Source: Pseudonocardia sp.
GTDB taxonomy: Bacteria; Actinomycetota; Actinomycetes; Mycobacteriales; Pseudonocardiaceae
Reading direction: 5' to 3'
NCBI GenBank assembly: GCA_016794615.1
Contig: JAEUJO010000140.1
Coordinates: 14,638-78,637, forward strand
DNA length: 64,000 nt
Made by a program: the position numbers and the translations under genes. Positions within the stretch are counted from its first letter, which is position 1. Every line of letters begins with the position of its first letter. The notes below the pieces were generated by a model. It had not been told where the DNA came from. It did not search any database and saw only the letters and a program-made list of their open reading frames with translations. Shown one piece after another: positions 31,312 to 62,072 of the stretch.

Positions 31312-31929
31312 GTGGCCTCCCACGACCCCGCGTCCGACCCCGGCCGCATCGTGCTGCTGCGGCACGGCGAGACCGAGTGGTCGGCGAGCGGCCAGCACAC
31401 CAGCCGCACCGACATCCCGCTCACCGACCGAGGCCGCACGCTGGCCCGGGGGAATGCCGAGCTGGGCAGAAGCCTGCTGCGCGGGCGGGCCCCCGCGCTC
31501 GTCCTGACGAGCCCCCGCAGGCGCGCCCGCACCACGGCCGAGCTCGTCGGGCTGCACCCGGACCGCGTGGACGACCGCCTCGTCGAGTGGGATTACGGCG
31601 AGTTCGAGGGCCGGACCACGACCGAGATCCGCATCGAGCGGCCCGGGTGGTCGATCTGGGATCACGGCGCACCCGGCGGCGAGACGCCCGAGCAGGTGAG
31701 CAGGCGCGCGGACGACCTGATCGCCGACATCGCACCGACCCTGGCCGACGGCGACGTGGTGTTCGTCGGGCACGGGCACTTCAGCCGGGCGCTGATGGCC
31801 CGCTGGATCGGTCTGCCCGTGTGCGAGGGCTCCCGCCTGATGATGGACGCGCCGGCCTGGTCGGTGCTCGGGCACTACCACACCGAGCTCCGCTGCCTCG
31901 ACTACGTCAACCTGCGCGCGCTGGGGTGA
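31312..31929 (+). CDS. Histidine phosphatase family protein (Rv3214/Gpm2-like)
   Basis: LLRHGETEWS, SPRRRARTT, EWDYGEFEG and VGHGHFSR. Confidence 0.9.
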   Translation: MASHDPASDPGRIVLLRHGETEWSASGQHTSRTDIPLTDRGRTLARGNAELGRSLLRGRAPALVLTSPRRRARTTAELVGLHPDRVDDRLVEWDYGEFEGRTTTEIRIERPGWSIWDHGAPGGETPEQVSRRADDLIADIAPTLADGDVVFVGHGHFSRALMARWIGLPVCEGSRLMMDAPAWSVLGHYHTELRCLDYVNLRALG

Positions 31930-32180
31930 CGGCCGGCATCCGGGCGGTCGAGGAACGCGACGTCGACGCCGTCGTCGGGCTCGTGCACGAGCTGGCCGAG
32001 TACGAACGCGCGGCCGAGCACTGCCTGCTCCGGGCAGAGCAGCTCCGCTCGGCGCTGTTCGGGCCGGTGCCCGCGCTGTTCGGGCACATCGCGGAGCTCG
32101 ACGGCCGGGTCGTCGGCTGCGCGCTCTGGTTCCTGAACTTCTCGACCTGGCGCGGGGTGCACGGGCTCTATGTAAACTAG
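31926..32180 (+). pseudogene. 5' part of a GNAT acetyltransferase (SSAT/Rv3216-like) interrupted by the prophage
   Basis: GTGA overlap with the phosphatase gene. IRAVEERDV..ELAEYE..LWFLNFSTWRGVHGLY is followed by prophage-derived VN-stop. Confidence 0.92.
32153..32171. other. attL core
   Basis: CGGGGTGCACGGGCTCTAT; 15 bp (32157-32171) identical to 61821-61835, 18/19 identical overall. Confidence 0.92.
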
Positions 32181-32185
32181 CAGAC

Positions 32186-32488
32186 GTGCTCGCTGCCATC
32201 TACCAAGTGACCGTGCCCGTCTCCGCCGAGTACGTGCTCGCCTCCGCGGTCGACGTCGTTCCGCTCGCCGAAGACGAGGCCCGACGTCGGATCGCGGACG
32301 CCGCCGGCGAGCGGAACGCGGGCGCGGCCACGATGGCATGGGAGGTCGAAGTCTGGACCGGCGAGCCCGGCGAGCGGAAGCGCATCCCCTGGCAGACGTG
32401 GCAGCGCGGGGGGCTTGCACCGCCGGGCGCATGGATGTTCATCCTCACTGCCCGGACGTCGATCGTGACGAGCGCGGAGCCGGCGTGA
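32186..32488 (+). CDS. Hypothetical protein coupled to the integrase
   Basis: GTG start 5 nt after the GNAT-fragment stop; its TGA overlaps the integrase GTG (GTGA). Confidence 0.55.
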   Translation: MLAAIYQVTVPVSAEYVLASAVDVVPLAEDEARRRIADAAGERNAGAATMAWEVEVWTGEPGERKRIPWQTWQRGGLAPPGAWMFILTARTSIVTSAEPA

Positions 32489-33891
32489 ACGCGGCTATCT
32501 ACCTGCGGATCAGTCAGGACCGCAGCGGCGAGGAGCTTGGCGTCACCCGGCAACGGGCGGACTGCGAGGCGCTCGTCGCCCGCCGCGGCTGGACGGTCCA
32601 CGACGTCTACATCGACAACGACGTCAGCGCGACGAAGGCCAAGCGGCGGCCCGAGTGGGAACGCATGATGGCCGACATCGAGGCCGGCCGCGCGCAGGTC
32701 GTCGTCGGCTGGACGATCGACCGCACACTCCGGTCGGGTCGCGACCGGCTGCGGATGCTCGAGGTTGGTAAGGAGCACGGCATCACGATCTCGCTCGTCC
32801 GCGGCAGCGACATGGACCTGAGCACGCCGGCCGGCCGGCTCGCCGCGGACATCCTCGGCGCCGTCGCGCTCAATGAGGTGGAGACCAAGGCCGACCGACA
32901 GAGGGCGATGCACGCTCAGGCCGCCCGGATGGGCAAGCGCGTGGGCGGCCGCCGGCCGTTCGGGTTCGAGCAGGACGGCGTGACGGTGCGCGCGCCCGAG
33001 GCGGCCGCGCTCACCGCGGCCTACCACGACTACCTCGCCGGAACCCCGCTGCTCGCAATCGCCCGACGCTGGAATGAGGCGGGCCTGCTGTCCGGCGTAC
33101 CCCGCGCGGACGGCGAGGGCATGGCCGAGTGGAACCACTCGGGCGTGCGGTCCGTGTTGCAGAACCCGCGATACATGGGGATGCGGCGTCACCGACCCGA
33201 GGGCGGGGAGGCCACGCTGCACCCGGCGGGCTGGCCCGCGCTCGTACCGGAGCACACCTGGCGCGCCGCGAACGCCCTGCTGGACTCGGCGGCGTCGGAG
33301 TTCAAGCCGCGCGGCGGCCGGCGCCTGCTGACCGGGGTGGCCCGGTGCGGCGTGTGCGGCACCCCGCTGAACGCCGCGAGGAACAAGGCCGGGCCGGGCG
33401 CCGTGGCGGCGTACCGCTGCCCCAACGGCGCGCACGTCGTCCGCCGCGCCGAGCTGCTGGACGAACAGATCACGCGGCTGGTCCTCGCGCGGCTGGCGCA
33501 GCCGGACGTGGTCGCGTTTCTCGCGGCCGCCGAGGACGACGGCGAACACGCGCGGCTGGCCGCCGAGGCCGCATCGCTGCGAGAACAGATGGACGAGATC
33601 GCCCACGCCGTCGCCAGCGGCGGGCTCACCGTCCGCCAGGCGCAGATTGCGAACGCCGGCCTGGCGAGTCGACTCACTGCCGCGGAGTCGGCAATGGCCC
33701 GGGCCGGCCGCGGGTCGGTGCTGTACGACCTGACGTCCAGTCAGATGACCCGGGAGCGATGGGACGCGCTCGGCGTGGATCAGCAGCGGGTCGTGATCGG
33801 CGCCCTGCTGACTGTCCGGGTGCATCCCGCCGGGCGCGGTGTGCGGCGGCCCGCACCGGAGACGGTTGAGGTGGCGTGGAGGGCGGCCTAA
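32485..33891 (+). CDS. Large serine recombinase (integrase)
   Basis: AAIYLRIS with catalytic Ser, YIDNDVSA, RPEWERMM, GRRPFGF recombinase domain, zinc ribbon CGVCG..YRC and coiled coil; adjacent to attL. Confidence 0.95.
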   Translation: MNAAIYLRISQDRSGEELGVTRQRADCEALVARRGWTVHDVYIDNDVSATKAKRRPEWERMMADIEAGRAQVVVGWTIDRTLRSGRDRLRMLEVGKEHGITISLVRGSDMDLSTPAGRLAADILGAVALNEVETKADRQRAMHAQAARMGKRVGGRRPFGFEQDGVTVRAPEAAALTAAYHDYLAGTPLLAIARRWNEAGLLSGVPRADGEGMAEWNHSGVRSVLQNPRYMGMRRHRPEGGEATLHPAGWPALVPEHTWRAANALLDSAASEFKPRGGRRLLTGVARCGVCGTPLNAARNKAGPGAVAAYRCPNGAHVVRRAELLDEQITRLVLARLAQPDVVAFLAAAEDDGEHARLAAEAASLREQMDEIAHAVASGGLTVRQAQIANAGLASRLTAAESAMARAGRGSVLYDLTSSQMTRERWDALGVDQQRVVIGALLTVRVHPAGRGVRRPAPETVEVAWRAA

Positions 33892-33903
33892 CCGGAGCCC
33901 GGA

Positions 33904-33941
33904 TTCTGGCCCACGATAAGGTCCATTAGCGAAACCCAGGA
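33904..33941. promoter_or_regulatory. Candidate lox/res-like crossover site for the tyrosine recombinase
   Basis: TTCTGGCCCACGATAA-GGTCCA-TTAGCGAAACCCAGGA: imperfect 16-bp arms (10/16) around a 6-bp asymmetric spacer, directly before the ATG. Confidence 0.5.
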
Positions 33942-35023
33942 TGGCCCTCGACCAGGGGAGGCAGGCCGTGCAGATCGGCGCCGAACTGACCACCATCGAG
34001 TCCGGCGAGCTGGTGCCCGCCGGCCCGCTGCGGCCCTCGGCGGACCTCACGCTGTCCCCGGCGGCCGCGCAGCGCATCCGCGACTCGGTGGCGGTGAACA
34101 CCGGCCGGGCCTACGCGCGCGTGTGGGATGGCCGCCCGCGGCCGGACGCCGAGCCGCCGAGCCCGCCCGGTGGGTTCCTCGGCTGGTGCCTCACCCACAG
34201 CCGCACCCCGATGCCGGCCACGCCCGAGACGCTGGCCGAGTACGTGAGCCACCTCTGCGATGAGGGCAAGAGCCCGGCGACCATCGAGCAGGCCCTGGCC
34301 GCCATCCGCACCGTGCACCACGCCGCCGGGTGCGAGCGGCCCGAGGCCGATCAGGCGCTGCGCGTCCTGCGCACCCACCGGCGCGAGCGCGCAGACGCCG
34401 GACTGTCGGCCCAGCGGCAGGCCGTCCCGGTCGTGGTGGAGAACCTGCGCAAGATGGTGGACACGCTGGACCGCAGCAAGCCCATCGGCCTGCGGGACCA
34501 CGCGCTACTCCTGCTCGGCATCGTGTCGTTCGGCCGCCGGTCCGAGGTGGTGAGCTACACCTGGGAGGACGTCAGCAAGGTGCCCGAGGGCCTGGTGCTG
34601 CGGCTGCGCAAGTCCAAGACCGACCAGGACGCCCGCGGCGCCACCATCCCGGTGCTGTATGGCGCCTTCCCTGGCACGGACCCGGTGCGCGTGCTCGCCC
34701 GGTGGCGCGAGCTGTGCGAGCGGCGCGGCATCACCTCGGGGCCCATCCTGCGCTCGGTGGACCGCCACGGGCGCATCGGCGGCAGCCTGTCTCCGCAGGC
34801 CGTCAACGTCGCCGTGCAGCGCATCGCCGAGCGCGCCGGGTTGGGCTCGGGCTACACCGCCCACAGCCTGCGCGCCGGCGCGGCCACCATCGCCTACAAG
34901 AACGGCGCGCCGATCTCGAAGATATGCGAGCTGGGCCGGTGGAAGCAGGGCAGCCCGGTGGTGCTGCGGTACATCCGCGCCGTGGATCAGTGGACCGATC
35001 ACCCGTTCCAGGGCGTGCTCTAG
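33941..35023 (+). CDS. Cre-like tyrosine recombinase (probable resolvase)
   Basis: N-terminal SAM-like domain (PATPETLAEYVSHL); catalytic R (FGRRSE), K (RKSKTDQ), HSLR, W (LGRW) and Y (LRY). Confidence 0.92.
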   Translation: MALDQGRQAVQIGAELTTIESGELVPAGPLRPSADLTLSPAAAQRIRDSVAVNTGRAYARVWDGRPRPDAEPPSPPGGFLGWCLTHSRTPMPATPETLAEYVSHLCDEGKSPATIEQALAAIRTVHHAAGCERPEADQALRVLRTHRRERADAGLSAQRQAVPVVVENLRKMVDTLDRSKPIGLRDHALLLLGIVSFGRRSEVVSYTWEDVSKVPEGLVLRLRKSKTDQDARGATIPVLYGAFPGTDPVRVLARWRELCERRGITSGPILRSVDRHGRIGGSLSPQAVNVAVQRIAERAGLGSGYTAHSLRAGAATIAYKNGAPISKICELGRWKQGSPVVLRYIRAVDQWTDHPFQGVL

Positions 35024-37179: not shown

Positions 37180-40100
37180 TCAGAGTCCGAGCATGGCGGG
37201 ACGCCACACCTTGACGGCGGCGCCTGCGGCGAACGCCCGCGGCAGGGCGGCGCAGGTGAACGTCTGCGGCGAGCTGGCCCCGCTGACCGCGGACACCTCC
37301 ACCGGCACGCCGCCCAGCTCGATGGTCAGCGGCATGTCCGCGGCGGCGGTCGTCCACAGCGGGCCGCTCGGGGTCGCCACCGACAGCGACGTGGCGCCAG
37401 CCGAGACGCCGCTGGCCAGCTCGGCCCCATCGGTGTCCAGGATGATGGGGAACTCGCCGGCCACCTGCGGATCGGCGTCGTCGGCCTCCAGCTTGCCCAC
37501 GGCCCACCGCTCGAACGGGCTGGCGTTGACCGTGAGCAGCCAGCGGTGCGAGTCCAACTGCATGGTGTAGCCCTCGACAGCCAACCGGATGTCCGCCGCC
37601 GGCACATCCGAGCGGATGGCGTGCAGCCCCGTGATGTCCACCCGGTGGGTGGGCCGCAGAGCCAGCACGTCCGCGGCCCGGTCGGCCACCTTGGCCACGT
37701 CCACGGTGAGCTGCGGATAGCGGTACCCGGCCACCGTGCCCTGCGCGACGGCCCACGCGGCGAAGTGGGGCAGCACCTCGTCCAGGTGGGCGTTGTAGGT
37801 CCCGGTGTCGTCGTACCGGCCGATGGCCTCGGTGCCCATCGGCCCGTCGGTGTCGGTGTGCGTCCAGCCGCCGCCGCCCGAGCGGGACGCGGTGAACTCA
37901 TTGCAGGTGGCCTGGTCGTCGTCGACCGGGGCGAACGGCGGCGCCAGCTCGGCGGCGTCCACGGTGAGCCGTGCTGGGCGGGACTCCCGGAACCGCTTGG
38001 TCAGGTAGGTCAGGCCCGGACCGTGCCCGTCGTAGAGCAGGCCGTGGTCCAGCGTCTCAACCTCACGCAGCAGGGCGACCAGGTTGGCCCGGGGCTGCGG
38101 CCCCATCCGGTCGGTCCAGGCCACCAGGGTGCCGTCACCGAACATGGCCAGCGGGATGGCGTTCTCCTCGCACAGCCGCCACAGCCGGCCCTCGCCCTCG
38201 GCGGCGTCCCAATCGCCCCGGAACGCCATCAGCTCGTCCTCGTTGGACCAGATGGATACCGCGGCGTTGTAGAGCGCCACGTGGCCCATCACCACGTCCT
38301 CGTTGCCGCCGTCGGTGTTGAGCTGCACCCGGGTGACCTTGCCGAAGGTGTAGCCGGCCACGGTGCTGGCGTAGAACTCGCTGATGCCGTCGCGGTCGTC
38401 GCCGAGGAAGTCCACGCGCCAGTCGATGTCGCTGCCGTCCTGGCTGAGCTGGAGCCCGAGCTGGCCGCGGCGGCCGTCCACCTCATAGTTGATCGTCTGG
38501 TCCACGATCATGGAGCCGCGGGACCACCCGCGGATGTTGAGGTCACCGCCGGTCTTGTAGCGGACCTCCCACAGCTCGCTGCGCCCGGTGGTGGCCAGGC
38601 CCATGAGCACGGTCTCATTCGTCGCGCCGCCGTCGGGGAACTCCACCAGGGCCCGCACCTGTACGGCGCCGGTGTCGGTGTAGTCGCCCACGTGGCCGTA
38701 CAGCTCGGCGCCGGCCAGCTTCAGCAGCGGGTCCGAGCATAGGAACGCATCGGACGCGCCCAGCTCGGGCGGCACCACGGCCGCGCCGGCGTTCCCGCCC
38801 GGGTGCTCGGCGCTGTAGAACGTCATCGGGTAGGGCCCGATCTCGGCGGCGATGTTCTGCGCGTTCGGGCCGTCCTCGCACGGCCAGTAGGCCACCACGT
38901 TGGTCGACGTGCCGATGGACCGGCGCATCGGCGACATCACCGGGGCGTCGCCCTGGGCCAGCCGGCGCAGCACGCCCGACGCGGACAGGGTCACCGTGGC
39001 GTCCACGGCGTCGGTGGACCAGCCGGGCGACCATCCGTCGGCGTTGCCCTGGAACAGGGTCTGGAAGCCGTCGCCGTCGCCGAGGTCCACCGAGGCCCGC
39101 ACCGGCGTGCCGCGGCGGACGTGCGGCCAGTTGCTCGACATCCCGCCGAGCGAGTAGGCGCCGGTGGTGTTGTCCAGGGTCAGCGCGCAGCTCGCGGGCT
39201 GGCTGGTGGACGCCTCGTCGCCCTTGCCGATGCGGATGGTGATGCCGCCGGCCACCCGCACGTCGGTGGTGATGTCCGACCAGGCCCAGCCCGAGCCGCT
39301 GGCGTCGGTGAGGTCCGCGGCCCACGCCACCTCCACGGCCAGCCGGGCGTCCGCGCCCAGCGCCTCGGTCAGCCACGGCACCCCGTCCGGCGCGTACGCC
39401 TCGATGACCTCCACGGCCACGTCGTCCGTGCCGGTGCCGATGCTGTTGGTGGCCGAGTAGCGCAGCACGTAGCTGCCCGGGGTGGCCGGCGTCCAGCTCA
39501 GCGCGGCGGCGGTGCCGATCGTGGTGCCCACGCCGGCCGGGCCGCTGACGATCGTCCAGGACCGGGAGGTGATGGCCTGACCGCCGTCGCTGGGCTCGGT
39601 GGCCGTGCGGGTCAGCGCGGTGTCCTCGGTGTGCGCGGGGACGTCGGCGCCGGCGGACACGGTGGGCGCCACGGCCGGGCGCAGCTCGATGCGCGAGATG
39701 TTCCAGGCCGCCGAGCTGGTCCCGAACGCATCCAGCGCGTACGACTGCGAGCCGACCGCGCCCCACAGCTTGTAGCCGACCGAGCCCGAGATGCCGCCGC
39801 CCGACGGCTGGTCGAAGTTGCGGACCACATCGAAACCGGTGGCCGTGACCGGCACGCCGCGCTTCTGCCACTCGCTGGCCGCCACGATGGACAGCGAGTT
39901 TGCGACCGTGCTGGTGGGGCTGAAGCTCGGCGCGTTGGTCGCTGAGCCTGAGGCGCCGCTGGAGGCAACGGGGTTGCCCAGGTCGGCGCCGGTCACCACG
40001 AACACATCCACCGAGGGCTCGCGGTTCAGCGAGTCCGAGCCGGCCGTGGTGACCGTGACCGTGACGCCCGTGGCCGCGCTCGGGTAGGCCGCGGTGTAGA

Positions 40101-40335: not shown

Positions 40336-40339
40336 CAGA

Positions 40340-42730: not shown

Positions 42731-42733
42731 CGG

Positions 42734-43461: not shown

Positions 43462-43465
43462 CGTG

Positions 43466-43946: not shown

Positions 43947-43982
43947 GACAGGTGCTCCCCTTGTTCGTTGCGGGTGGTTGGG

Positions 43983-53200: not shown

Positions 53201-53334
53201 CGGTCGTCGCCCTCGCCGTCGAGCTGGTCCGCCAGCGCCTGCTCCAGTTCCTCGGCCCGGGTGGGGCGGCGGCCGTGCGGCCCGGCGGCGCTGCTGCGGC
53301 GGCGTTCCTGCACCGCGCGGGTCCGGCCGTCCAT
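53197..53334 (-). CDS. 45-aa basic peptide upstream of the lysin (absent from the ORF track)
   Basis: MDGRTRAVQERRRSSAAGPHGRRPTRAEELEQALADQLDGEGDDR; its TGA overlaps the lysin ATG. Confidence 0.55.
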   Translation of the reverse strand: MDGRTRAVQERRRSSAAGPHGRRPTRAEELEQALADQLDGEGDDR

Positions 53335-53398
53335 GGACCCATGATCTCAGATGGTGGGACGGCGCCACCCCCCAGCCACGGCGACGGGCGGCGGCGAG

Positions 53399-53563
53399 GT
53401 CCTGACCAGCTGTGTTACGGGTGTTACGGGGTCTCCAGTTCCTCTGGTGAACTATGCGCACGCGCAGGCATGTGGCCGAGCGCGCGTAGTAGCTACTTGC
53501 AACAGAGGTATACACACGGGGAACGGGGAACCCCGTAACACCCGTAACACAGCTGGTCAGGAC
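53399..53563. repeat. 33-bp perfect inverted repeat with internal iterons, candidate replication origin
   Basis: GTCCTGACCAGCTGTGTTACGGGTGTTACGGGG (53399-53431) and its exact reverse complement (53531-53563), just downstream of the helicase gene. Confidence 0.8.
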
Positions 53564-53620
53564 GTCGAAGGGCCCCGCAGCCGAGGTTGGCTACGGGGCC
53601 CTCCAGAGCCGGTGCTGCGG

Positions 53621-55471
53621 TTAGAACGAGCTGGCGTCCCCGGCTACCACCCGCAGGTGCCGGTCCTCCTGCTCGCCGCCGTTCTGCTCGGCCTCGGACA
53701 GGAAGCGGATGCCGCGCCACACCCGCGCCGTCTTGCCGGGCATCACGTACGGGGTGGCCCGCTCATCCGCGTGCGGGTCGCGCTGCGCGTCGCCCCACTT
53801 GTTCGGCACTGGCGCGGGCGGCAGCTCGCGGCGGGACTCCACGTCGCCGGCCTTGCACCGGAACACCTTGGACTCGGACTCCACGCCGAACGCAGCTTTG
53901 AGCGACGCCGGAAACCGCTGGTTGATCAGCTTCTGCGACCACTCGCGCTTGCCCTGGCCGGTCAGGAAGTCGTCGAACGCCCGCCGCAGCATGTCCCCGG
54001 TGATGAAGGTGGAGGCATCGGCCGGGGCCAGCCGCTCGGTGGCGAACTGGAAGGCCACATCGCTGTCCGAGCGCCACTCTCGGGTTGCCTGGGTCACCGG
54101 CGCCGGGTCGTCCACGGGGTTGTCCCGCTGCGCGTACCAGGCCATGGCGCCCTTGACTACCCACGCCAGCGCGGCGGCTGGGACGGTGGCCCCGTGCTGC
54201 ATGTACGGCCGCAGGGTCTTGTCACCCGGCAGCTCATGCGCGGCGAGCACCTGGCCCGGCTGGGCCTTCACGAACGTGAACGGCCACGGCATTTTCTTCA
54301 ACCGCCGCCAGGTGGCGTGGTCGGTGGCGTCCACCTGCGGCTGGTGGTTGGTGTTGATGAACAGCGAGTGCGTGGGCTTGAACTCCACCGTGTCCTGCCG
54401 CATGTGCCGCGCCTTGATCTTGGGCGTGCCCACGATGGTCTTCAGCCGGTGGGTGTCCAGGTGGCCCTCCTCGGCGGTCTCCTCCATGAGGGCGAGCCGG
54501 GCGCCGCGCAGGTCCATCAGCTCGGTGGGGTGCTGCCCCGGCTGCGCGAGCAGTACCCGGTCAGACACCAGCGTGTAGTACGTGCCGGCGGCCCGGGTCA
54601 TGGCCTCCATCACCGTGCTCTTGCCGTTCTCGCCGCCGCCGGTGGACAGCACCAGGCTGTCATCGTCGGGCGTGTGGCCGGTCATGGCCTGACCCATGCG
54701 CATCTGGAACCACTCGCGGCAGTCCGCCCCCACGGCGTTCAGGGCCTGCTCGAACCGCTCGCACCGCGCCGCCGGGTCGTAGTCCCCGCCGGCCAGGTGG
54801 GTGATCAGCAGCTCGGGGTCGTGCGGCCGCAGCTCGCCGGTGCGCAGGTCCACCACGCCGTTGTGGCAGTTGAGCAGGTCGTGGTGGGTGTCCAGCTCGG
54901 CTGCGTCGGTCAGCACGCCGTCCAGCCGCCGGCACAGCTTGGTCACGTTGCCGATCTTGGACTCTTGCAGCAGGTTCAGCCAGATGTCCGCCTGCACGCG
55001 GGCCTCCCGCAGCTCGCGGCTCAGCTCGGCGTGCCGCTCGGCCTCCTCCTCGGTGGCGTAGGTGGCCAGCAGCTTGGCCAGGGCCTTGTCTGGCCGGTCG
55101 TCGGTCCGCGCGGCCTCCACCTCGGCGGCCGGTGCGCGGCCCAGGATCTCGCCTTCCAGGTCGTCCACGGCCTGCTGAAGCTTGACGATCTCGGCGCGCA
55201 GGTCCTTCTCGGTGCGGTCGAGGAACAGCCGCACGGCCTCCCGGGCGCGTTCCTCGCACGCCGGGCCAGTCAGCCAGCGGGTGCCGTCCCATGCCAGCCA
55301 GCCGAGCCCGGGGGCGTACCGGAACTTGCCGAGGATGACGCGCGGGGCCACCTCGTCGGCGGCGCGGGACTCGGCGCCGTGGGTCTTGGCCAGCTTGGTG
55401 AGCGTGCCGGGCGCCGGGTCGGTGCCCTCCTGCGCGGCCTTCAGCAGGTCATCGAACAGGGATTCGGACAT
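53621..55471 (-). CDS. P4-family primase-associated SF3 helicase (D5-like)
   Basis: WLAWDGTRW, LLNCHNGVVDLRTG, Walker A GGGENGKST, LMDLRGARL, INTNHQP and TWRRL. Confidence 0.92.
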   Translation of the reverse strand: MSESLFDDLLKAAQEGTDPAPGTLTKLAKTHGAESRAADEVAPRVILGKFRYAPGLGWLAWDGTRWLTGPACEERAREAVRLFLDRTEKDLRAEIVKLQQAVDDLEGEILGRAPAAEVEAARTDDRPDKALAKLLATYATEEEAERHAELSRELREARVQADIWLNLLQESKIGNVTKLCRRLDGVLTDAAELDTHHDLLNCHNGVVDLRTGELRPHDPELLITHLAGGDYDPAARCERFEQALNAVGADCREWFQMRMGQAMTGHTPDDDSLVLSTGGGENGKSTVMEAMTRAAGTYYTLVSDRVLLAQPGQHPTELMDLRGARLALMEETAEEGHLDTHRLKTIVGTPKIKARHMRQDTVEFKPTHSLFINTNHQPQVDATDHATWRRLKKMPWPFTFVKAQPGQVLAAHELPGDKTLRPYMQHGATVPAAALAWVVKGAMAWYAQRDNPVDDPAPVTQATREWRSDSDVAFQFATERLAPADASTFITGDMLRRAFDDFLTGQGKREWSQKLINQRFPASLKAAFGVESESKVFRCKAGDVESRRELPPAPVPNKWGDAQRDPHADERATPYVMPGKTARVWRGIRFLSEAEQNGGEQEDRHLRVVAGDASSF

Positions 55472-56784
55472 CAGGCGGCGCTCGCATTCGCGTTCAGGAT
55501 GGCGCCCAGCGCCAGCTTCAGGGTGGTCTTGGGGGAGCTGGCGTCCATGACGCCGTGGTGGCGGTGGCCGTCGATGAGGGCGCGCACGGCGGCCTCGGCC
55601 GGGTAGTGGCCGGCGATGGACTCGCTGATCAGGTGCCAGGCGTGGTGGTGGAGCAGGTCCGCGGGGTCGGCCTTCATCCAGGTCACGCGCCGCCCGAGCC
55701 GGGCGGGGTCGGTGTAGCGGGTGAACGTGGCCAGGTACGTCTCCACGTCCGCGTCGTCGGCGGGCGGCACCTGCGGCATCGGCTGCGCCGTGGCGCCCTG
55801 CGGGCCCCGGTAGCTGCCGCCCTGGAAGAACCCGCGGGGCTCGGCGGGCTTGACCGGCTTCTGCTGCGCGATGGTGGCGCAGGCCCGCAGCAGGCTGGTG
55901 GCCTCACCAGCCGGACGCCCGGCGGTGGCCAGGTAGCCGGTGAAGCGGTCCCACAGCAGATCGAGCAGCACGCGGACGCCGGTGTGGCCCTCGCGCCCGA
56001 GCATGAGCGCGTGCACGGCGGCGTCCTTGAACTCGTCGTGGCCGACGTGCTGAGCGGGTGCCGCCCACCGGTTCATAACGTGGCGGACCAGGCCGTCCGG
56101 CTCGCCCTCGGGGAAGCTGGCGACCAGGGCGCGCAGGTCCACCGTGTCCACGCTCTTGTCCACGTTGCCCGCCGTGCCGCGCAGCGCGGCGAACCACTCG
56201 GCGGGCAGCTCGGGGAACACCTCGGCGCGCGGGTAGCGGGTGGTGCGCTCGCCCCACGTGGGCGGCACGCCGGGCTCGCCCGGGAGGTACCAGGCGTACT
56301 CGGCGCCGGTGTCGGGGTGCACCGAGGGTGCGCACACCGTGTAGCGGTGGTGCCAGCAGCACAGCTCCACCGACTTGCACGGCTTGGTCTTCAGCCGCAC
56401 GTCCTCGGGGATGCGGTAGACGTACTGCCGCGACGGGCTGTCGTCGCCCCGCGCCGTGCTGGACCAGGTGGCGGGCAGCGGCGGCAGGCCGCGCTCGGCG
56501 GCGAACGCGGCGAGCTGGGCCACCCCGTCCTTGTCGCCGTAGCCGTGGTCCACGTCGATGGCGAGCGTGAGCTGGTGGCGCAGCCCGATGTTGTCCATGC
56601 GGTGCCCGCGCCCTGCCTTGGCGCGCTTCACCGGGTCCGAGTCCAGCCAGGCTGCCACCTTGGCCGGCGTCACGGTGCCGTCGTAGCCGGTCGCGCCGCC
56701 GACGGGCCGGCTCTTGCCCTCCACGGGGATCGGCCACAGGTGGCCCATCTCGTAGATTTCGGCGGCGTCGTCGTAGGCGCCCAT
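55471..56784 (-). CDS. Bifunctional DNA primase/polymerase (Prim-Pol)
   Basis: WPIPVEGKSRP, NIGLR, AIDVD, LPATWSST and YTVCAPSVHP; TGATG-coupled to the helicase gene. Confidence 0.85.
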   Translation of the reverse strand: MGAYDDAAEIYEMGHLWPIPVEGKSRPVGGATGYDGTVTPAKVAAWLDSDPVKRAKAGRGHRMDNIGLRHQLTLAIDVDHGYGDKDGVAQLAAFAAERGLPPLPATWSSTARGDDSPSRQYVYRIPEDVRLKTKPCKSVELCCWHHRYTVCAPSVHPDTGAEYAWYLPGEPGVPPTWGERTTRYPRAEVFPELPAEWFAALRGTAGNVDKSVDTVDLRALVASFPEGEPDGLVRHVMNRWAAPAQHVGHDEFKDAAVHALMLGREGHTGVRVLLDLLWDRFTGYLATAGRPAGEATSLLRACATIAQQKPVKPAEPRGFFQGGSYRGPQGATAQPMPQVPPADDADVETYLATFTRYTDPARLGRRVTWMKADPADLLHHHAWHLISESIAGHYPAEAAVRALIDGHRHHGVMDASSPKTTLKLALGAILNANASAA

Positions 56785-57125
56785 CACGCGGCCCACCGGA
56801 GGAGGTCCCGGTCCCAGCCCAGCGTCATCGCGGCGTAGACGGGCTCGCCGTCGATGTGGTGGCCGAGTGCGGCCGCGGCCTCGGCGAACGCCGTGGCGTA
56901 CTGCCAGCCGATGAACCACTGCCGGCCCAGGCTCCACCACTCGCGGCGGTCCGCCGGGACGATGGCCTTCAGCAGCTTGGTCAGCTCCCAGTCGTAGGGG
57001 AAGCTGACGGCCACGTGGCCGTCGGGCCGGCGGCGCAGGGTCACGGTCTTGCAGCCGCGGGGGTGGCCTGCGGCGTTGCCGCGGGTAGACTGGTGTGCAG
57101 TCACAGGGGTCTCTCCTGTGGTCAC
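56784..57125 (-). CDS. Hypothetical protein (HARP-like small domain)
   Basis: VAVSFPYDWELTKLLKAIVP..REW..RQW; coupled to Prim-Pol. Start uncertain. Confidence 0.65.
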   Translation of the reverse strand: MTTGETPVTAHQSTRGNAAGHPRGCKTVTLRRRPDGHVAVSFPYDWELTKLLKAIVPADRREWWSLGRQWFIGWQYATAFAEAAAALGHHIDGEPVYAAMTLGWDRDLLRWAA

Positions 57126-57207: not shown

Positions 57208-57381
57208 TCAGGCGGCGTCCGTGAGCGCGCTGCCTGCTGCGCTGGCGGGGTCGTGCGGGGTGCGGGTCTGTCCGTAGGTGCGGCGGATGAGGCCGAGCTG
57301 GGCGACGGACAGCGGCCAGGGCTCGGCCATCTGCTCGGCCACCCACTGGTCGATGGCCTCGGCGTCCTGCTGCGTGATCAC
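57208..57381 (-). CDS. Small hypothetical protein
   Basis: VITQQDAEAIDQWVAEQMAEPWPLSVAQLGLIRR; GTGA overlap with the upstream HTH gene. Confidence 0.6.
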   Translation of the reverse strand: MITQQDAEAIDQWVAEQMAEPWPLSVAQLGLIRRTYGQTRTPHDPASAAGSALTDAA

Positions 57382-57593
57382 GCCGCGGCTGCCTTGGCGT
57401 CGATCCACGCGCGGACGTCGCTGAGCCGGTACCGCACGTACTTGCCCAGCCGGATGGCGCGCGGCCCGGTGCCCTCGGCGGTCCACTTGCGCACGCTGCG
57501 GGCGGGGATGCCGCCGAGCAGGGCGCACAGCTCGGACTGCGTCAGGAGCCGGTCCTGGTCCTCGCCGGGTGCGATCGGGGCGATCGTCTCCAT
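57378..57593 (-). CDS. AlpA/excisionase-like HTH protein (Cro/Xis/RDF candidate)
   Basis: LLTQSELCALLGGIPARSVRKW..GTGPRAIRLGKYVRYRLSDVRAWI; divergent from the repressor; GGAGGA SD. Confidence 0.88.
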   Translation of the reverse strand: METIAPIAPGEDQDRLLTQSELCALLGGIPARSVRKWTAEGTGPRAIRLGKYVRYRLSDVRAWIDAKAAAA

Positions 57594-57683: not shown

Positions 57684-57760
57684 ACACTTAGTGTGTTCTA
57701 GAACACGGCAGTTCCCAGGCAACCCGGCGGGTCTTGTGGCTGTTGTCGGCCACTAGTGGC
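57684..57760. promoter_or_regulatory. Palindromic operators in the divergent repressor/Cro switch
   Basis: ACAC-TTA-GTGT (57684-57694), perfect GTGTTCTAGAACAC (57693-57706) and perfect GCCACTAGTGGC (57749-57760). Confidence 0.65.
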
Positions 57761-57772
57761 ACCATTCGCGCC

Positions 57773-58267
57773 ATGAGCGAGGGGACCGGCCCAACGGCCG
57801 ACGACTGGAAGCGCCTGGGTAAGGCCATCGAGGACCGACGGTTTGAGCGCGGCCTGTCGCAGGAACAGCTCGTGAAGCGTGGCGGCCCGAGCCACCAGAC
57901 CGTCCGCAACATCGAGCGCGGCCTGGTGGCCGACTACCGGCCCACCACGTTCCGCAAGCTGGACCGCGCGCTGGACTGGCTGGACGGCACCAGCGAGAAA
58001 ATCCTGCGCGGCACCGCCACCGAGGACGACATTGCCGGCGTGTGGGTGCGGGCCGGCTCGGGCGATGAGCGCGTACAGATCACCCCCGACGGCCGGCCGC
58101 TGGGGCGCGTGGTCGATGCCGGCCCGATCCCTGGCGCCGAACTTGCAGACGACGTGCGCGCGCTCATGCAACGGCTGGCGACCGAGCCATGGGTGCCGGG
58201 CACCAGCGAGGCTGTCATTGCGCTGGTCCGGCTGCTCGGCGAGCTGGAGGGCAGCGAGCGCGGATAG
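57773..58267 (+). CDS. XRE-family repressor (immunity repressor candidate)
   Basis: LGKAIEDRRFERGLSQEQLVKRGGPSHQTVRNIERG..TFRKLDRALDW; no SD, probably leaderless. Confidence 0.88.
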   Translation: MSEGTGPTADDWKRLGKAIEDRRFERGLSQEQLVKRGGPSHQTVRNIERGLVADYRPTTFRKLDRALDWLDGTSEKILRGTATEDDIAGVWVRAGSGDERVQITPDGRPLGRVVDAGPIPGAELADDVRALMQRLATEPWVPGTSEAVIALVRLLGELEGSERG

Positions 58268-58482: not shown

Positions 58483-60762
58483 TCAGGCGGCCGTGTCGCG
58501 CCGCCGGAACGCCGCGTCCACGTCCTCGGCGAGCACGTACATCCGACCGCCGGACAGCTTGCGCGGCTCCACGCCCTCGGCCCGCAGCCGGGCGCTGAGC
58601 GCCTTGGCGTCGAACGTCGCGGCGCCGTACTCGGCCGGGCTCTCCTGCGCGAGCAGCTTCAGCAGCGTGGTGGTGGTGACCCGGTCCTCGCCGTCCATCA
58701 CCTCGGCGACGTCGGCCAGGAAGTCCACCACCGTGGCGTCCTCGGCCGCCGCGCCGCCGCCGTTCGGGTCCACCGGGCCGCCGCGCAGCTCGATGGCCCG
58801 CCGCGCCACGTCGGTGGCCGCGTCCCCGTCGATGTAGTGCGTGCGGACGATGACCGACGACTGGCCCGGCTCCAGCTCGAAACCCTCGCCATTGAGCACC
58901 AGCACGCCCTTGTCGATGCCCGGCCGCAGCTTGTGCGGCGCGCCGCCACCGTCCACGGCCTTGGCGCCGATGGCCATCCGCGCCTGCTCCTCGGTGCCGA
59001 TGGGCAGGCAACCGCGGATGTGCGCGGCCTCGCGGATCAGCTTGGGCAGGTTCTCGTTCGTCGGGTCCTGCGTGCCCAGCCACAGCGTGACGTTGACCGC
59101 GCGACCCTGGTTGAGAATCTTGCGGGCGGCGTTGAAGAACCGGCTGGTGGCCTTGGTGCCGCCATACGGGCGCTTGTCCAGGCCGATGACCGGGCACATG
59201 AACGCCACCTGCGCCTCGTCCACGATGGCGGCCAGCGGGTGGAACCCGCTGCCCTTGCGTCGGGCCAGGTCGCGCGTCACGCCGTTGGGGAACTCCTCCT
59301 TGTCCAGGGCGCCCAGCCGGCGCTCCATCTCGGCCACCACGCCCTCCAGCATCTCGGTGGCCGCCACCACGTGCTCGTCCGCCGGGCCCTCGATCAGCAC
59401 CGTGGTCAGGCCGCCGAACATGTGCCAGTCGCCGATGCCCTTCAGGTCGGCCACGCGCAGCTCGGTGACCTTGTCCAGCGCCCACCACAGCGCGAGCGCG
59501 CGCAGCGCGGCGGTCTTGCCCTGGTTGGACAGGCCGGTGAGCAGGATGTGCCGCTGGTGCAGGCTGAGCGCGCCGAGGTCGCCGCGCATCGTCTGGCCCC
59601 ACGGCACCCGGCCGCCGTAGGTGTCGGCCTTCAGCGTCTCGTCCAGGACCAGGGGCGACGGCGGCAGCGGCTTGTCCAGCTCGCCCGGGTCGGCGGCCCA
59701 GAACCGGATGGTCCGAGGCGCCGGGACGGACATGAACAGCTCGTGCTCGTGGCGCTCCACGTTCTCGGCGGCCTTCCGGCGCCGCTTCATGATCTCCTCG
59801 GTGGACACGCCCGACGGCAGCCGCGCGTCCCACTCGGTCCCGCACCCGGCCACGCGGATCGGCGAGAGCATCCCGCCGGCCGTGTCGGTGGCCATCATGA
59901 CCTCGATGGCCTTCCGCAGCGGCGCAATGCCCAGGTCGCGCAGCATCAGCACGGCCTTGTGGGGGGTGATGTCGGCGCCGAGCGCGGCGGCCTGTGCCTT
60001 GGTCAGCAGGAACTTGGGCGCGTTCACGGCCCGGTCGCCCTCGCGCCACGACCAGATCAGCAGGATCGGCAGCGCGGCCCAGGCGCCGAGGATGGCGGCC
60101 CACTGCACGGCCCAGGCGATGCACTGGATCACGTCGTTGACGAACGCCCACCAGGACAGGAAGTCCCAGTCCGGACACGTCGCCCGGACTGCCGGGTCGG
60201 GGTCGCCGCACTCGGGCGAGGTATTCGGGGTGAGCTGCGCGGCGAGCGAGATCAGCAGATTCACGATCAGGAGCACGGCGACGATCAGGCCGAGCACGGC
60301 GCCGGCCATCAGCACCTGCTTGGGCAACGAGAGCAGGTGTGCCCGCCGGTCCGCCTTGGCCTTGGTCAGCGAGTCCAGCGCCCGGGTGGCGGCGTCGTGC
60401 TGCCCGGTCTGGTGCAGCGCGGCGATCGTGGTCTTGTGGGTCTTGTAGGTGAGCGCGCCCATGAAGCGGACCGCCCACGACTTCCACCCGGCGCCGATGG
60501 TCCACAGGACCCGGGCGAGCGCGCGGCCCCAGTCGTCCAGCGCGTGGCCGGTCTTGGCCATCGGCGCGGAGTGCACGACTGTGCCGACGATGTGGGCGGC
60601 CTGCTGCGTGCGCGTGCGCCGCGGCTCGATGTCGGCCCGGTCGGTCGGACGGACGACTACGGCGCGGGTGCGCGCCGGCGCGCGGGTGCCGAGCTTGCGC
60701 CGGATGATGCCCGGCCCGTGCTCGGCGTCCAGCTTTTCGGTGTCGCGGATCAGGTCGTCCAT
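58483..60762 (-). CDS. traB: TraB-type FtsK/SpoIIIE conjugative DNA translocase
   Basis: N-terminal TM pair, Walker A TGLSNQGKT, DLKG, Walker B IVDEAQ, LGTQDP and C-terminal winged helix (FLADVAEVMDGEDRVTTTTLL); next to an spd-like gene and 8-mer repeats. Confidence 0.88.
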   Translation of the reverse strand: MDDLIRDTEKLDAEHGPGIIRRKLGTRAPARTRAVVVRPTDRADIEPRRTRTQQAAHIVGTVVHSAPMAKTGHALDDWGRALARVLWTIGAGWKSWAVRFMGALTYKTHKTTIAALHQTGQHDAATRALDSLTKAKADRRAHLLSLPKQVLMAGAVLGLIVAVLLIVNLLISLAAQLTPNTSPECGDPDPAVRATCPDWDFLSWWAFVNDVIQCIAWAVQWAAILGAWAALPILLIWSWREGDRAVNAPKFLLTKAQAAALGADITPHKAVLMLRDLGIAPLRKAIEVMMATDTAGGMLSPIRVAGCGTEWDARLPSGVSTEEIMKRRRKAAENVERHEHELFMSVPAPRTIRFWAADPGELDKPLPPSPLVLDETLKADTYGGRVPWGQTMRGDLGALSLHQRHILLTGLSNQGKTAALRALALWWALDKVTELRVADLKGIGDWHMFGGLTTVLIEGPADEHVVAATEMLEGVVAEMERRLGALDKEEFPNGVTRDLARRKGSGFHPLAAIVDEAQVAFMCPVIGLDKRPYGGTKATSRFFNAARKILNQGRAVNVTLWLGTQDPTNENLPKLIREAAHIRGCLPIGTEEQARMAIGAKAVDGGGAPHKLRPGIDKGVLVLNGEGFELEPGQSSVIVRTHYIDGDAATDVARRAIELRGGPVDPNGGGAAAEDATVVDFLADVAEVMDGEDRVTTTTLLKLLAQESPAEYGAATFDAKALSARLRAEGVEPRKLSGGRMYVLAEDVDAAFRRRDTAA

Positions 60763-60764
60763 GG

Positions 60765-61448
60765 TCACGCCTCCTGCGGGGTGGTGGCGGTGTGGCGGTG
60801 GGTGGCGATGAGCTGCTTTGCGCGGTGCTCGGTCAGCCCGAGCTTCACGAGTGACCGGCGGCCGGCGCCCTCGTGGATGGCGGCGATGGCGCGCGTCTCC
60901 ACGTCTCCCACCTCGGCATCCACGGGTGGTGTGGCGACGGCGCGGAGTGGCGTGGCGGCCGGGGTGGCGGCCTCCACCACGGCCTCCACGGCCGGGGTGG
61001 CGGGGTGTGGCGACGTGCGGACCAGCAGCACCACCAGGTGCACCGTCGCGCCCACCACGGCGGGCGGGATGGCGCCGACCGCCACGGCCACCCACCACGG
61101 CGGGGTGACCTCGTGGGCGTGCATCCCGAGCTGCCCGGCGTTGCCGACCACGGTCACGGCGAGCAGCGCCCACGTCATCCGTCCGGCGAACCGGGCGGCG
61201 TCGGGGGTGGTTCGTCCGCCGAGCCAGGTGGCGCAGGAGACGGCGGCGCCGGCGTCGACTGCGACGGGGAGGAGCCAGGCGAACCGGGCGGGGATGCTGA
61301 CCGCGAGGGCCAGGGCGCGGAGCGCGTCGAACGAGAGGACCGCCGCGGCGGCCAGGACCACGGCAAGGCCGAGCCAGACGACCCACGGCGGGCGTGGTGC
61401 CGACCCCGGCGGAACAGGCTGCGAAGCCATGGGATCACCGAGGCTCAC
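60765..61448 (-). CDS. DUF2637/SpdA-like membrane protein
   Basis: Four TM helices, LSFDAL..AWLLPVAVDAG..VVGNA..AVGAIPP, C-terminal HTH-like tail. Start 61448 or 61430. Confidence 0.82.
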   Translation of the reverse strand: MSLGDPMASQPVPPGSAPRPPWVVWLGLAVVLAAAAVLSFDALRALALAVSIPARFAWLLPVAVDAGAAVSCATWLGGRTTPDAARFAGRMTWALLAVTVVGNAGQLGMHAHEVTPPWWVAVAVGAIPPAVVGATVHLVVLLVRTSPHPATPAVEAVVEAATPAATPLRAVATPPVDAEVGDVETRAIAAIHEGAGRRSLVKLGLTEHRAKQLIATHRHTATTPQEA

Positions 61449-61696
61449 CGCAGCACGTCCCAGTCGTCACCGTGGACGACCTGGATCAGCGCGCCCGGGT
61501 AGCGGGCCTGCCAGTCCGCCCACACCTCGGCGGCTGCGGTCATCTGGTCCTTGCCGGCGTAGTCCACCACCTTGACGGTGAGAACCGGGATGGCGCTGGA
61601 GCCGGGCACGACGTTGCGCCCGGTGCCCACGATGAACTCGGCGCGCGGCGGGCGCCGGTCTACGGCCGCGCGGGTGGGTGGGGCATGATCCGACAC
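61445..61696 (-). CDS. Hypothetical protein, first gene of the transfer operon
   Basis: AGGAGG SD; TGA overlaps the spd-like GTG. Confidence 0.65.
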   Translation of the reverse strand: MSDHAPPTRAAVDRRPPRAEFIVGTGRNVVPGSSAIPVLTVKVVDYAGKDQMTAAAEVWADWQARYPGALIQVVHGDDWDVLR

Positions 61697-61816
61697 GGGC
61701 CGGACCTCCTGTCCTAGTCAGGGGTGCGGTCAAGGGCCGGCGTGGAAGTGGTGTTCCGCGTCCGGCCCGCCTTCAGTTGTGGGCCAGCCCCTGCTCGACA
61801 TCTACGAGTTGGCTAA

Positions 61817-61835
61817 CGGCGTGCACGGGCTCTAT
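61817..61835. other. attR core
   Basis: CGGCGTGCACGGGCTCTAT; 15 bp identical to attL. Confidence 0.92.
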
Positions 61836-62072
61836 CTCGAGGACCTCTACGTCCAGCCGACGCATCGCGGCCGCGGTATCGGCCGGGCGCTGCTCGCGCG
61901 GCTCGCCGCCGTGTGCGTCGAGCGGGGGCTCGCGCGGCTGGAGTGGGCGGTGCTGGACTGGAACACCCCGTCGATCGGCTTCTATCGCACGCTGGGCGCA
62001 GTGCCGATGGACGAGTGGACGGTGTTCCGACTCGACGGCGCGGCGCTGGAGAAGCTGGGCAGGGAGAGCTGA
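61836..62072 (+). pseudogene. 3' part of the interrupted GNAT acetyltransferase
   Basis: LEDLYVQPTHRGRGIGRALL (acetyl-CoA motif A), LEWAVLDWNTPSIGFY; in frame with 31926-32171. Confidence 0.92.

What the first reader, a model, noticed from the sequence alone, without database searches (positions are those of the whole stretch)
31926..62072. Integration splits a core GNAT acetyltransferase gene, and excision would restore it exactly
Seen: 31926-32171 (82 codons) joined to 61836-62072 gives a 160-aa GNAT reading STWRGVHGLY|LEDLYVQPTHRGRGIG. The prophage supplies a stop two codons after attL and no replacement 3' end. Flanking genes match my recollection of the conserved Rv3214-Rv3216-Rv3217c-Rv3218-whiB1 block, so the target looks like a core gene. 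Established: serine-integrase elements can act as excision-controlled gene switches (skin/sigK, Listeria comK). Inference: lysogens are GNAT-null (polyamine or other acetylation) unless the element excises, which could be a regulatory switch or a simple cost.
Basis: partly seen in the sequence, partly recalled or inferred. Interest (0 to 1): 0.7.

Follow-up and report, generated by a model that had tools for sequence, protein, structure and literature searches.

The report
Prophage splits a conserved acetyltransferase gene
A complete 29.7-kb phage has inserted itself, using a serine integrase, into the middle of a widely conserved but dispensable-looking acetyltransferase gene of a Pseudonocardia-like bacterium. 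Related phages use the same spot in other hosts, so this is an ordinary gene-splitting lysogeny with a newly described landing site, and nothing shows it acts as a gene switch.

Summary
Joining 31926-32171 to 61836-62072 gives a gap-free 160-aa GNAT of the diamine/thialysine acetyltransferase family. A 15-bp repeat, GTGCACGGGCTCTAT, flanks a 29,664-bp insert. The closest relative has the uninterrupted site, identical over about 50 bp.

The insert is a complete-looking siphovirus-type prophage. Its large serine integrase starts beside attL.

New here:
- Integrases 58-62% identical sit at the same GNAT codon in three other metagenome contigs. One of these is a decayed remnant.
- Seven contigs in the excised (attP) arrangement carry a (G)CGTG-CA-C centre. 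Dyad arms are centred on that CA (up to 24 of 26 positions). This fixes the crossover at 32160-61 and 61824-25 and makes the serine integrase the integrase used, not the neighbouring tyrosine recombinase.
- attB lies in one of the two most conserved stretches of the gene.
- The gene is in 347 of 401 family genomes. This genome has no close paralogue.
- The recalled Rv3214-whiB1 synteny holds.

Nothing points to a switch. Frameshifted or lost copies in other genomes suggest the gene is expendable. Verdict: new member of a known kind, modest interest.

The parts
31312..31929 (+). Host histidine-phosphatase gene (Rv3214/gpm2-like). Its TGA stop overlaps the GNAT GTG start (GTGA at 31926-31929), so the two genes form one operon.
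   Evidence: Pfam His_Phos_1 E 3e-42; sequence read.
31926..32180 (+). 5' part of the split GNAT gene: 82 host codons, then phage-encoded Val-Asn-stop (TAG at 32178-32180).
32157..32171 (.). attL core, GTGCACGGGCTCTAT. The inferred crossover dinucleotide CA is at 32160-32161.
32186..32488 (+). 100-aa ORF with no homologues. It starts at the relic of the ancestral integrase start (VLAAIY...), 5 nt after the GNAT' stop. Its TGA stop overlaps the present integrase start (GTGA).
   Evidence: Coding-like codon bias, GC1/2/3 = 0.71/0.57/0.87. Compared with the int starts of relatives. No Pfam hit. No hit in related loci or elsewhere in the genome.
32485..33891 (+). Large serine integrase, 468 aa, N-terminus VNAAIYLRISQD with the catalytic-serine motif.
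   Evidence: Pfam Resolvase E 3e-28, Recombinase E 4e-12, Zn_ribbon_recom E 1.5e-4. 40% identical to annotated mycobacteriophage and Streptomyces phage serine integrases. Gene call P0001.
33941..35023 (+). Tyrosine recombinase. It is an accessory and not the enzyme that made this insertion.
   Evidence: Pfam Phage_integrase E 3e-11; PHROG integrase. Absent beside the integrase in the lysogens L126 and L130, and not detectably homologous to the ones in L119, L121 and L123. No tRNA in the region.
37180..45416 (-). Tail and connector module: 1051-aa tail protein, tape measure (40340-42730), minor tail, tail completion, major tail (43983-44390), head-tail adaptor (44796-45416).
   Evidence: PHROGs.
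45432..51935 (-). Head and packaging module: major capsid, protease, portal, HNH, large terminase, small terminase.
   Evidence: Pfam Phage_capsid, Phage_portal E 2e-54, TerL, Terminase_6; PHROGs.
52436..56940 (-). Lysin (N-acetylmuramoyl-L-alanine amidase), D5-type primase-helicase, and primase/polymerase.
57378..57593 (-). 71-aa HTH_17 Xis-like protein. Candidate recombination directionality factor (inference only).
   Evidence: Pfam HTH_17 E 3.5e-9; PHROG 'excisionase and transcriptional regulator'. Small HTH_17 genes also accompany the integrases in L122 and L127.
57734..58267 (+). HTH_3 repressor-like regulator.
58483..61696 (-). Leftward operon next to attR: FtsK/SpoIIIE-like ATPase, DUF2637 protein (60765-61448), and an 83-aa ORF. 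In relatives the DUF2637 gene lies directly upstream of int, which is the attP configuration.
61821..61835 (.). attR core, GTGCACGGGCTCTAT. Crossover CA at 61824-61825.
61836..62072 (+). 3' part of the split GNAT gene: 78 codons plus stop. It holds the acetyl-CoA-binding motif RGRGIG. An in-frame GTG at 61779 in the phage arm could give a 97-aa N-truncated product; expression is unknown.
62130..63598 (.). Host flank: 144-aa membrane protein on the minus strand (62130-62564) and a DAGK-like lipid kinase on the plus strand (62648-63598). A whiB1-like gene follows just beyond the window.

Best explanation
A temperate siphovirus-type phage of 29,664 bp integrated into the chromosome of a Pseudonocardia-like actinobacterium. 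Its large serine integrase recombined a roughly 50-bp attP, which lies immediately upstream of its own gene, with an attB inside a diamine/thialysine-type GNAT acetyltransferase gene. Strand exchange was at the CA of GTG-CA-C, the Val-His codons of the conserved GVHG(L/I)Y motif at the start of strand beta-4.

The insertion separates the substrate-binding N-terminal half from the acetyl-CoA-binding C-terminal half. Lysogens therefore lack this enzyme, and this genome holds no close paralogue. The site is the regular landing pad of a whole integrase clade (about 58% identity or more). It was probably favoured because it is one of the two most conserved stretches of a widespread but expendable gene.

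After integration the host operon reads straight on: His_Phos, GNAT', orf100, int, and the tyrosine recombinase. Excision would need the integrase plus a phage directionality factor, possibly the 71-aa HTH_17 protein. It would rebuild attB and the ORF without a scar, as a by-product of prophage induction.

Shown: the anatomy, the empty site in a relative, the crossover position, the recurrent target, and the absence of a paralogue. Inferred: loss of enzyme activity, read-through into int, the identity of the directionality factor, and that excision happens only on induction.
For: The joined ORF and its gap-free alignment to intact orthologues. The uninterrupted site in G016 at 92% nucleotide identity. 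An exact 15-bp repeat found only at the two ends.

Serine integrase domains and the YLRISQD N-terminus. Full phage modules.

Independent lysogens at the same codon: L126 (integrase 60% identical, GNAT' 67% identical...WRGVHPL*) and L130 (58%; His_Phos_1, then GNAT', then int), plus the remnant L120 (62%).

Seven contigs in attP configuration share the CGTG-CA-C centre. Dyad symmetry about CA is 12-24 of 26 positions, against about 6.5 expected by chance. L128 has perfect 19-bp arms.

The attB window has mean conservation 0.845 against a gene mean of 0.72, rank 19 of 434 windows. The GNAT family assignment rests on PDB 12jc at E 3e-41 and 2fe7 at E 4.5e-41. There is no close paralogue. Background: clades of large serine recombinases usually target one conserved gene and disrupt it (PMC10083194); attB reconstruction and occupied sites for phiJoe (PMC5311408).
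Against: The integrase region carries a 299-bp insertion, which could affect expression. No directionality factor has been identified. Loss of enzyme activity is inferred from GNAT architecture, not measured. attB itself shows little dyad symmetry (8 of 26), which is usual for attB but adds nothing. The genome is a 96%-complete MAG, so a paralogue could lie in the missing 4%.
Confidence: 0.82

Rival explanations
1. Phage regulatory switch (active lysogeny). The prophage excises without lysis under a particular host condition to turn the GNAT on, and re-integrates or is lost afterwards, as with Listeria phi10403S in comK or Bacillus SPbeta in spsM.
For: Scar-free restoration is possible. The gene has no close paralogue. 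After integration int lies in line with the host His_Phos-GNAT' operon, with the GNAT' stop 5 nt before the next start in both the window and L130. Host transcription could therefore supply integrase. The target is conserved across a phage clade.
Against: None of these features is specific to a switch. All large-serine-integrase prophages sitting in ORFs restore the ORF on excision, and clade-wide target conservation is the norm (PMC10083194). No host-regulated directionality factor is evident. The gene is absent from about 13% of family genomes and frameshifted in G016, G261 and G315. In L120 the element has decayed with the GNAT left broken. This fits a tolerated loss. Only 1 of 401 family genomes carries the insertion.
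Confidence: 0.07
2. The prophage is defective or locked in, so the GNAT is permanently inactivated.
For: A 299-bp insertion lies between the ancestral integrase start and the present start. No directionality factor has been proven. A related element (L120) has decayed in place next to an IS.
Against: All structural, packaging, lysis, replication and regulatory genes are present as long intact ORFs. The integrase keeps a complete catalytic domain and a plausible coupled start. Both att cores are identical.
Confidence: 0.1
3. The neighbouring tyrosine recombinase (33941-35023), helped by the Xis-like protein, made the insertion. The 15-bp repeat would then be a tyrosine-type core.
For: A 15-bp identical core is long for a serine integrase. 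A tyrosine recombinase and an HTH_17 Xis-like gene are both present.
Against: The att centre lies directly upstream of the serine integrase gene in every relative. Lysogens L126 and L130 and phage L122 have no tyrosine recombinase beside int. The tyrosine recombinases of L119, L121 and L123 are not detectably homologous to this one. In L126 and L130 host-phage identity ends right after CA, and the attP arms are symmetric about CA. No tRNA or arm-type repeats were found.
Confidence: 0.02
4. Assembly artefact: phage and host contigs were joined through a shared 15-mer in a metagenome-assembled genome.
For: The genome is a 367-contig MAG.
Against: Both junctions sit inside one 99.7-kb contig with host genes on both sides in conserved synteny. 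A 15-mer is too short to cause an assembler join. The same junction type recurs in independent samples.
Confidence: 0.01

Closest known systems
Actinophage large serine integrases with intragenic attB sites (phiC31, phiBT1, R4, TG1, phiJoe, Bxb1 in groEL1)
   Same: Resolvase, Recombinase and zinc-ribbon architecture. attP lies next to int. Sites are short with a central dinucleotide and imperfect inverted arms. Integration is inside a conserved host ORF. Relatives share the same attB, as for phiJoe and the SCO2603 element (PMC5311408).
   Different: At most 40% identical to any deposited phage integrase. The target gene, an SSAT/thialysine-type GNAT, turned up in none of my literature searches. 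The int start codon lies only 14 nt from the core. The phage itself is novel: its portal is 29% identical to the nearest deposited phage.
Phage regulatory switches: Listeria phi10403S/comK, B. subtilis SPbeta/spsM (SprA-SprB) and skin/sigK, cyanobacterial fdxN element (XisF)
   Same: An element with a serine recombinase splits a host ORF, and precise excision rebuilds it.
   Different: Those systems have demonstrated host-programmed excision, for example sprB under sporulation control (PMC5499854). Here no regulation, no condition and no excision product is known, and the target looks dispensable.
phiRv1 of M. tuberculosis (serine integrase Rv1586c with the small Xis-like directionality factor Rv1584c)
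   Same: An actinobacterial large serine integrase accompanied by a small Xis-type protein of about 70 aa that could act as directionality factor. The phiRv1 details are from my own recollection; Rv1584c is listed among known directionality factors in PMC5311408.
   Different: phiRv1 targets a repetitive element (REP13E12), not a single-copy gene. The role of the HTH_17 protein here is untested.
Diamine / thialysine N-acetyltransferases (SSAT2-like GNATs; PDB 12jc, 2fe7, 8yv7, 2bei); Rv3216 / MMAR_1341
   Same: Full-length similarity at E 3e-41 to 2e-25, with the GNAT motif-A loop RGRGIG. The gene neighbourhood matches the Rv3214-Rv3220c block.
   Different: The substrate is unknown: Rv3216 is listed with unknown substrate in PMC10407107. 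Orthology to Rv3216 rests on synteny and on Rhodococcus and Nocardia relatives, not on a direct sequence comparison.

Membership tests
Large serine integrase (LSR) integration system | N-terminal resolvase catalytic domain with the serine nucleophile | tested here: met
   Pfam Resolvase E 2.8e-28 covering profile positions 1-144 of 145. N-terminus AAIYLRISQD.
Large serine integrase (LSR) integration system | Recombinase domain plus zinc-ribbon/coiled-coil domain in a protein of 450-700 aa | tested here: met
   Recombinase E 4e-12. Zn_ribbon_recom E 1.5e-4, 22.5 bits, just below the 25.3-bit cut-off. Protein length 468 aa.
Large serine integrase (LSR) integration system | An attP of about 50 bp with imperfect inverted arms around a central crossover dinucleotide, next to int | tested here: met
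   Symmetry about CA: window attP 15/26, L121 19/26, L128 24/26, L129 19/26, L119 14/26, L122 15/26, L123 12/26. In L126 and L130 host-phage identity ends immediately after CA.
Large serine integrase (LSR) integration system | attP x attB recombination by integrase alone; excision needs a directionality factor | not testable with these tools
   Needs in vitro or in vivo recombination assays. Candidate factor: the 71-aa HTH_17 protein at 57378-57593.
Intact temperate tailed phage (prophage) | Capsid, portal, terminase, tail, lysis, replication and repressor genes present and uninterrupted between the att sites | tested here: met
   Single copy in the genome.
Phage regulatory switch / active lysogeny | The element interrupts a host ORF and precise excision restores it | tested here: met
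Phage regulatory switch / active lysogeny | Excision is triggered by a host signal and happens without lytic production, turning the gene on when it is needed | not testable with these tools
No attB or attP contigs in the assembly.
SSAT / thialysine-type GNAT acetyltransferase | Full-length similarity to solved members, with the acetyl-CoA-binding motif A | tested here: met
   PDB 12jc E 2.9e-41 and 2fe7 E 4.5e-41 over residues 2-157. Acetyltransf_1 E 9e-21. RGRGIG at residues 93-98.
SSAT / thialysine-type GNAT acetyltransferase | Acetylation of diamines, polyamines or thialysine | not testable with these tools
   Needs an enzyme assay on the reconstituted protein.
Orthologue of M. tuberculosis Rv3216 | Conserved neighbourhood Rv3214 (His_Phos), Rv3216, Rv3217c (membrane), Rv3218 (DAGK-like), whiB1, Rv3220c (kinase) | tested here: met
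   Domain content and gene sizes in the window. whiB1-like and PdtaS-like genes just downstream. His_Phos-GNAT-DAGK synteny in Rhodococcus and Nocardia loci. The Rv gene order itself comes from recollection.
Orthologue of M. tuberculosis Rv3216 | Reciprocal best sequence match to Rv3216 | not tested
   No M. tuberculosis sequence was fetched.

The most novel reading that the evidence does not exclude
Integration puts the phage integrase under the control of the operon it has broken. The attP centre lies 14 nt before the int start codon. In lysogens the sequence therefore runs His_Phos, GNAT' stop, 5 nt, start, and then int. In this reading, conditions that induce the GNAT operon raise integrase levels and, with a directionality factor, trigger non-lytic excision that restores the acetyltransferase. 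That would be a self-sensing gene switch in a non-sporulating actinobacterium.
Probability: 0.06. Interest if true: 0.65.

Novelty: new member of a known kind. Interest (0 to 1): 0.3.

Why it matters
It adds a defined serine integrase with its attP, attB and crossover dinucleotide, together with a small clade of relatives. Its natural landing site lies in a gene present in about 87% of sampled Pseudonocardiaceae genomes and in many other actinomycetes, including Streptomyces, Nocardia, Rhodococcus, Blastococcus and Arthrobacter. Such pairs are useful as orthogonal integration vectors for actinomycetes that are hard to manipulate genetically.

Biologically, it is a clear example of a phage lineage following one conserved coding motif across host genera, with attP tracking the host sequence. 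It also marks the Rv3216-type GNAT as expendable in nature. It does not open a new mechanism.

Tried and rejected
- Scans of genome contigs and viral contigs with the integrase found no close relative. The deep protein search did find relatives.
- 300 family genomes searched with the integrase gave a best hit of 48% identity, and none lay next to a GNAT.
- 401 family genomes were searched for split GNATs. Only this genome is split by an insert. G261 and G315, which looked split, are frameshifts with adjacent pieces.
- Dyad analysis of the window's own attP alone was weak (12/22 at the CA centre). It became convincing only with the relatives.
- I tested whether the tyrosine recombinase is a conserved partner of the integrase. 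Its position recurs, but the sequences are not detectably homologous, and it is absent from several relatives.
- I looked for a second att-like site inside the insert using the motif GCAGACGTG. Three copies were found against 1.9 expected, which is not significant.
- Literature searches for a GNAT attB, or for active lysogeny in actinomycetes, found nothing specific.
- A 50%-identical integrase in Pseudonocardia sp. WMMC193 uses a different gene (DUF885), so the GNAT target is limited to the closer clade.

Full report
**1. The observation**

The window is 73% G+C actinobacterial DNA and corresponds to contig C230, positions 14638-78637, of a 4.36-Mb, 367-contig, 96%-complete genome. Named relatives of the target gene and of the integrase point to Pseudonocardia or Pseudonocardiaceae.

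It is a GNAT (Acetyltransf_1, E 9e-21). It aligns without any gap across the junction to eleven intact orthologues from the same genus at 67-76% identity.

The interrupted copy runs two codons into the insert and stops, reading GLYVN* with the TAG at 32178-32180. The 15-mer GTGCACGGGCTCTAT occurs only at 32157-32171 and 61821-61835, against 0 expected by chance.

The closest relative, G016, has the uninterrupted locus. The joined flanks align to it at 92% identity over 1.1 kb and are identical around the junction apart from one synonymous base.

**2. What the insert is**

The 29,664 bp between the cores carry the following genes:

- a large serine integrase
- a tyrosine recombinase
- tail proteins, a tape measure and a major tail protein
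- head-tail adaptors, capsid, protease and portal
- HNH nuclease, and large and small terminase
- an amidase lysin
- a D5 primase-helicase and a primase-polymerase
- a 71-aa HTH_17 Xis-like protein and an HTH repressor
- an FtsK-like ATPase and a DUF2637 protein

All are long, open ORFs. The element is single-copy in the genome. It is distant from deposited phages: the integrase is at most 40% identical and the portal 29%.

**3. Which recombinase, and where the crossover is**

A deep protein search found integrases 58-65% identical in metagenome contigs.

Seven of those contigs are in the excised arrangement, with the DUF2637 gene pointing left and int pointing right. These are L119, L121, L122, L123 (with L124 and L125 as copies), L128 and L129. 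Just upstream of int, every one carries a centre of the form (G)CGTG-CA-C. Inverted arms are centred on that CA. L128 has perfect 19-bp arms (24 of 26 positions paired). L121 and L129 score 19 of 26, the window's reconstructed attP 15 of 26, and chance is about 6.5.

Three other contigs are lysogens at the same place:

- L126 reads ...LWFLNFSTWRGVHPL*, with int 13 nt further on.
- L130 has His_Phos_1, then a 96-aa GNAT' ending WRGVHPLCVS*, then 5 nt and the int start.
- L120 is a remnant with only GNAT residues 39-84, the integrase, and an IS element beside it.

In L126 and L130 the host-like sequence ends right after CA. The crossover is therefore the CA at 32160-61 and 61824-25. The extra ten identical bases in this window reflect an attP arm that mimics the host sequence. 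An earlier first-reader note (e1-5224649) proposed the same centre from this window alone. The relatives confirm it independently.

The tyrosine recombinase is not responsible. It is absent beside int in L122, L126 and L130. Where a tyrosine recombinase does follow int (L119, L121, L123), it is not detectably homologous to this one. There is no tRNA in the region. An integrase at 50% identity, from Pseudonocardia sp. WMMC193, sits in a DUF885 gene, so the GNAT specificity belongs to the closer clade.

**4. The target gene**

The protein is a close relative of solved thialysine and diamine acetyltransferases (12jc at E 3e-41, 2fe7 at E 4.5e-41, SSAT2 2bei at E 2e-25).

The break falls between GVHGLY and LEDLYV..RGRGIG. 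From established GNAT architecture, this separates the N-terminal substrate half from strand beta-4 and the acetyl-CoA loop, so neither fragment should be active. This is an inference.

An in-frame GTG at 61779 could give a 97-aa C-terminal fragment. Its expression is unknown.

The gene is present in 347 of 401 sampled family genomes and in 50 of 60 genera, and widely across Actinomycetota. The 50 nt centred on CA are one of the two most conserved nucleotide stretches in the gene, at 0.845 against a gene mean of 0.72 (rank 19 of 434 windows). This genome has no close paralogue; the next best hit scores E 1.5e-5.

The gene is nevertheless not indispensable:

- It is missing from about 13% of family genomes.
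- It is frameshifted in G016, G261 and G315, although assembly error cannot be excluded.
- It is left broken in L120.
- The M. marinum gene paired with Rv3216 is listed in a table of that study's genes, whose assays used strains lacking predicted N-acetyltransferase genes (PMC12305045).

**5. Synteny**

The recalled gene block is supported. His_Phos_1 has a stop that overlaps the GNAT start. After the GNAT come a 144-aa membrane protein on the opposite strand and a DAGK-like kinase. Just beyond the window lie a whiB1-like gene and a PdtaS-like kinase. Rhodococcus and Nocardia loci share the His_Phos-GNAT-DAGK order.

**6. How it works**

The most likely reading is ordinary lysogeny by a large serine integrase. 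Integration needs only the integrase. The prophage is stable until a directionality factor is made on induction, and the HTH_17 protein is a candidate for that factor. Excision then rebuilds attB.

Because attP lies 14 nt before the int start, integration places int in line with the host operon. In this window a 100-aa ORF of unknown function has been inserted at the old int start and is coupled by overlapping stop and start codons to the present int start. Read-through from the host promoter is plausible but untested.

**7. Switch or cost**

Nothing found is specific to a regulated switch. Clade-wide use of one conserved gene, and disruption of that gene, are the norm for large serine recombinases (PMC10083194). 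Reconstructed and occupied attB sites are familiar from phiJoe (PMC5311408).

The decisive data would be reads or PCR for attB and attP. These were out of reach. I put the switch at about 7%.

**8. Verdict**

The regulatory idea is unsupported. This is a new member of a known kind, with modest practical value as a new integrase and att pair whose attB is widespread in actinomycetes.

Noticed in passing
window 32186-32488: A 299-bp insertion lies between the ancestral integrase start (GTG at 32186, VLAAIY) and the present start (GTG at 32485, VNAAIYLRISQD). It is flanked by diverged copies of GTGnnnGCnGCnATCTACC. It forms a 100-aa ORF with coding-like codon bias and no detectable homologues. 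Its stop overlaps the int start (GTGA).
   Followed up: partly
window 33941-35023; L119 2077-3144; L121 3725-4810; L123 6454-7458: A tyrosine recombinase gene directly follows the serine integrase in several related phages. These tyrosine recombinases share no tblastn-detectable similarity with the one in the window. The position is conserved while the sequence is not; the role is unknown.
   Followed up: partly
L006 about 1500-1510 (G016); G261:C1:3380531-3381031; G315:C62:7113-7570: The GNAT orthologue appears frameshifted in three relatives. In G016 an extra G in ACGGGCCGAC shifts the frame at about codon 36. These are either pseudogenes or assembly errors.
   Followed up: partly
L120 5900-8760: A 62%-identical integrase lies beside only a fragment of the GNAT (residues 39-84), with an rve-family IS immediately downstream and no phage genes. 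It looks like a decayed remnant of the same kind of integration.
   Followed up: partly
L127 2880-4390 (Pseudonocardia sp. WMMC193, JAKKDO010000003.1): A 50%-identical serine integrase with a similar phage-side arm (GTACCATAGCAGATGTG) abuts a DUF885 gene. Target specificity has therefore shifted within the wider clade.
   Followed up: no
window 58483-61696: An FtsK/SpoIIIE-like ATPase plus a DUF2637 protein form a module typical of actinomycete integrative conjugative elements. Here it sits at the right end of a complete phage and is conserved in the relatives L121-L123. The long ORF 58483-61386 overlaps the DUF2637 ORF 60765-61448 in another frame, so its true start is probably near 60768.
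   Followed up: no
L131 672-923 and 1142-2650 (contig C230, about 78671-80650, just past the window end): A whiB1-like gene (MDWRHRAICRDEDPELFFPVG...) and a 502-aa PdtaS-like histidine kinase follow the DAGK-like gene.
   Followed up: partly
window 61733-61767; L119 about 310-345; L121 about 2165-2200: A conserved G+C-rich hairpin lies just upstream of attP in this phage and its relatives. It may be a terminator or a regulatory element between the leftward operon and int.
   Followed up: no
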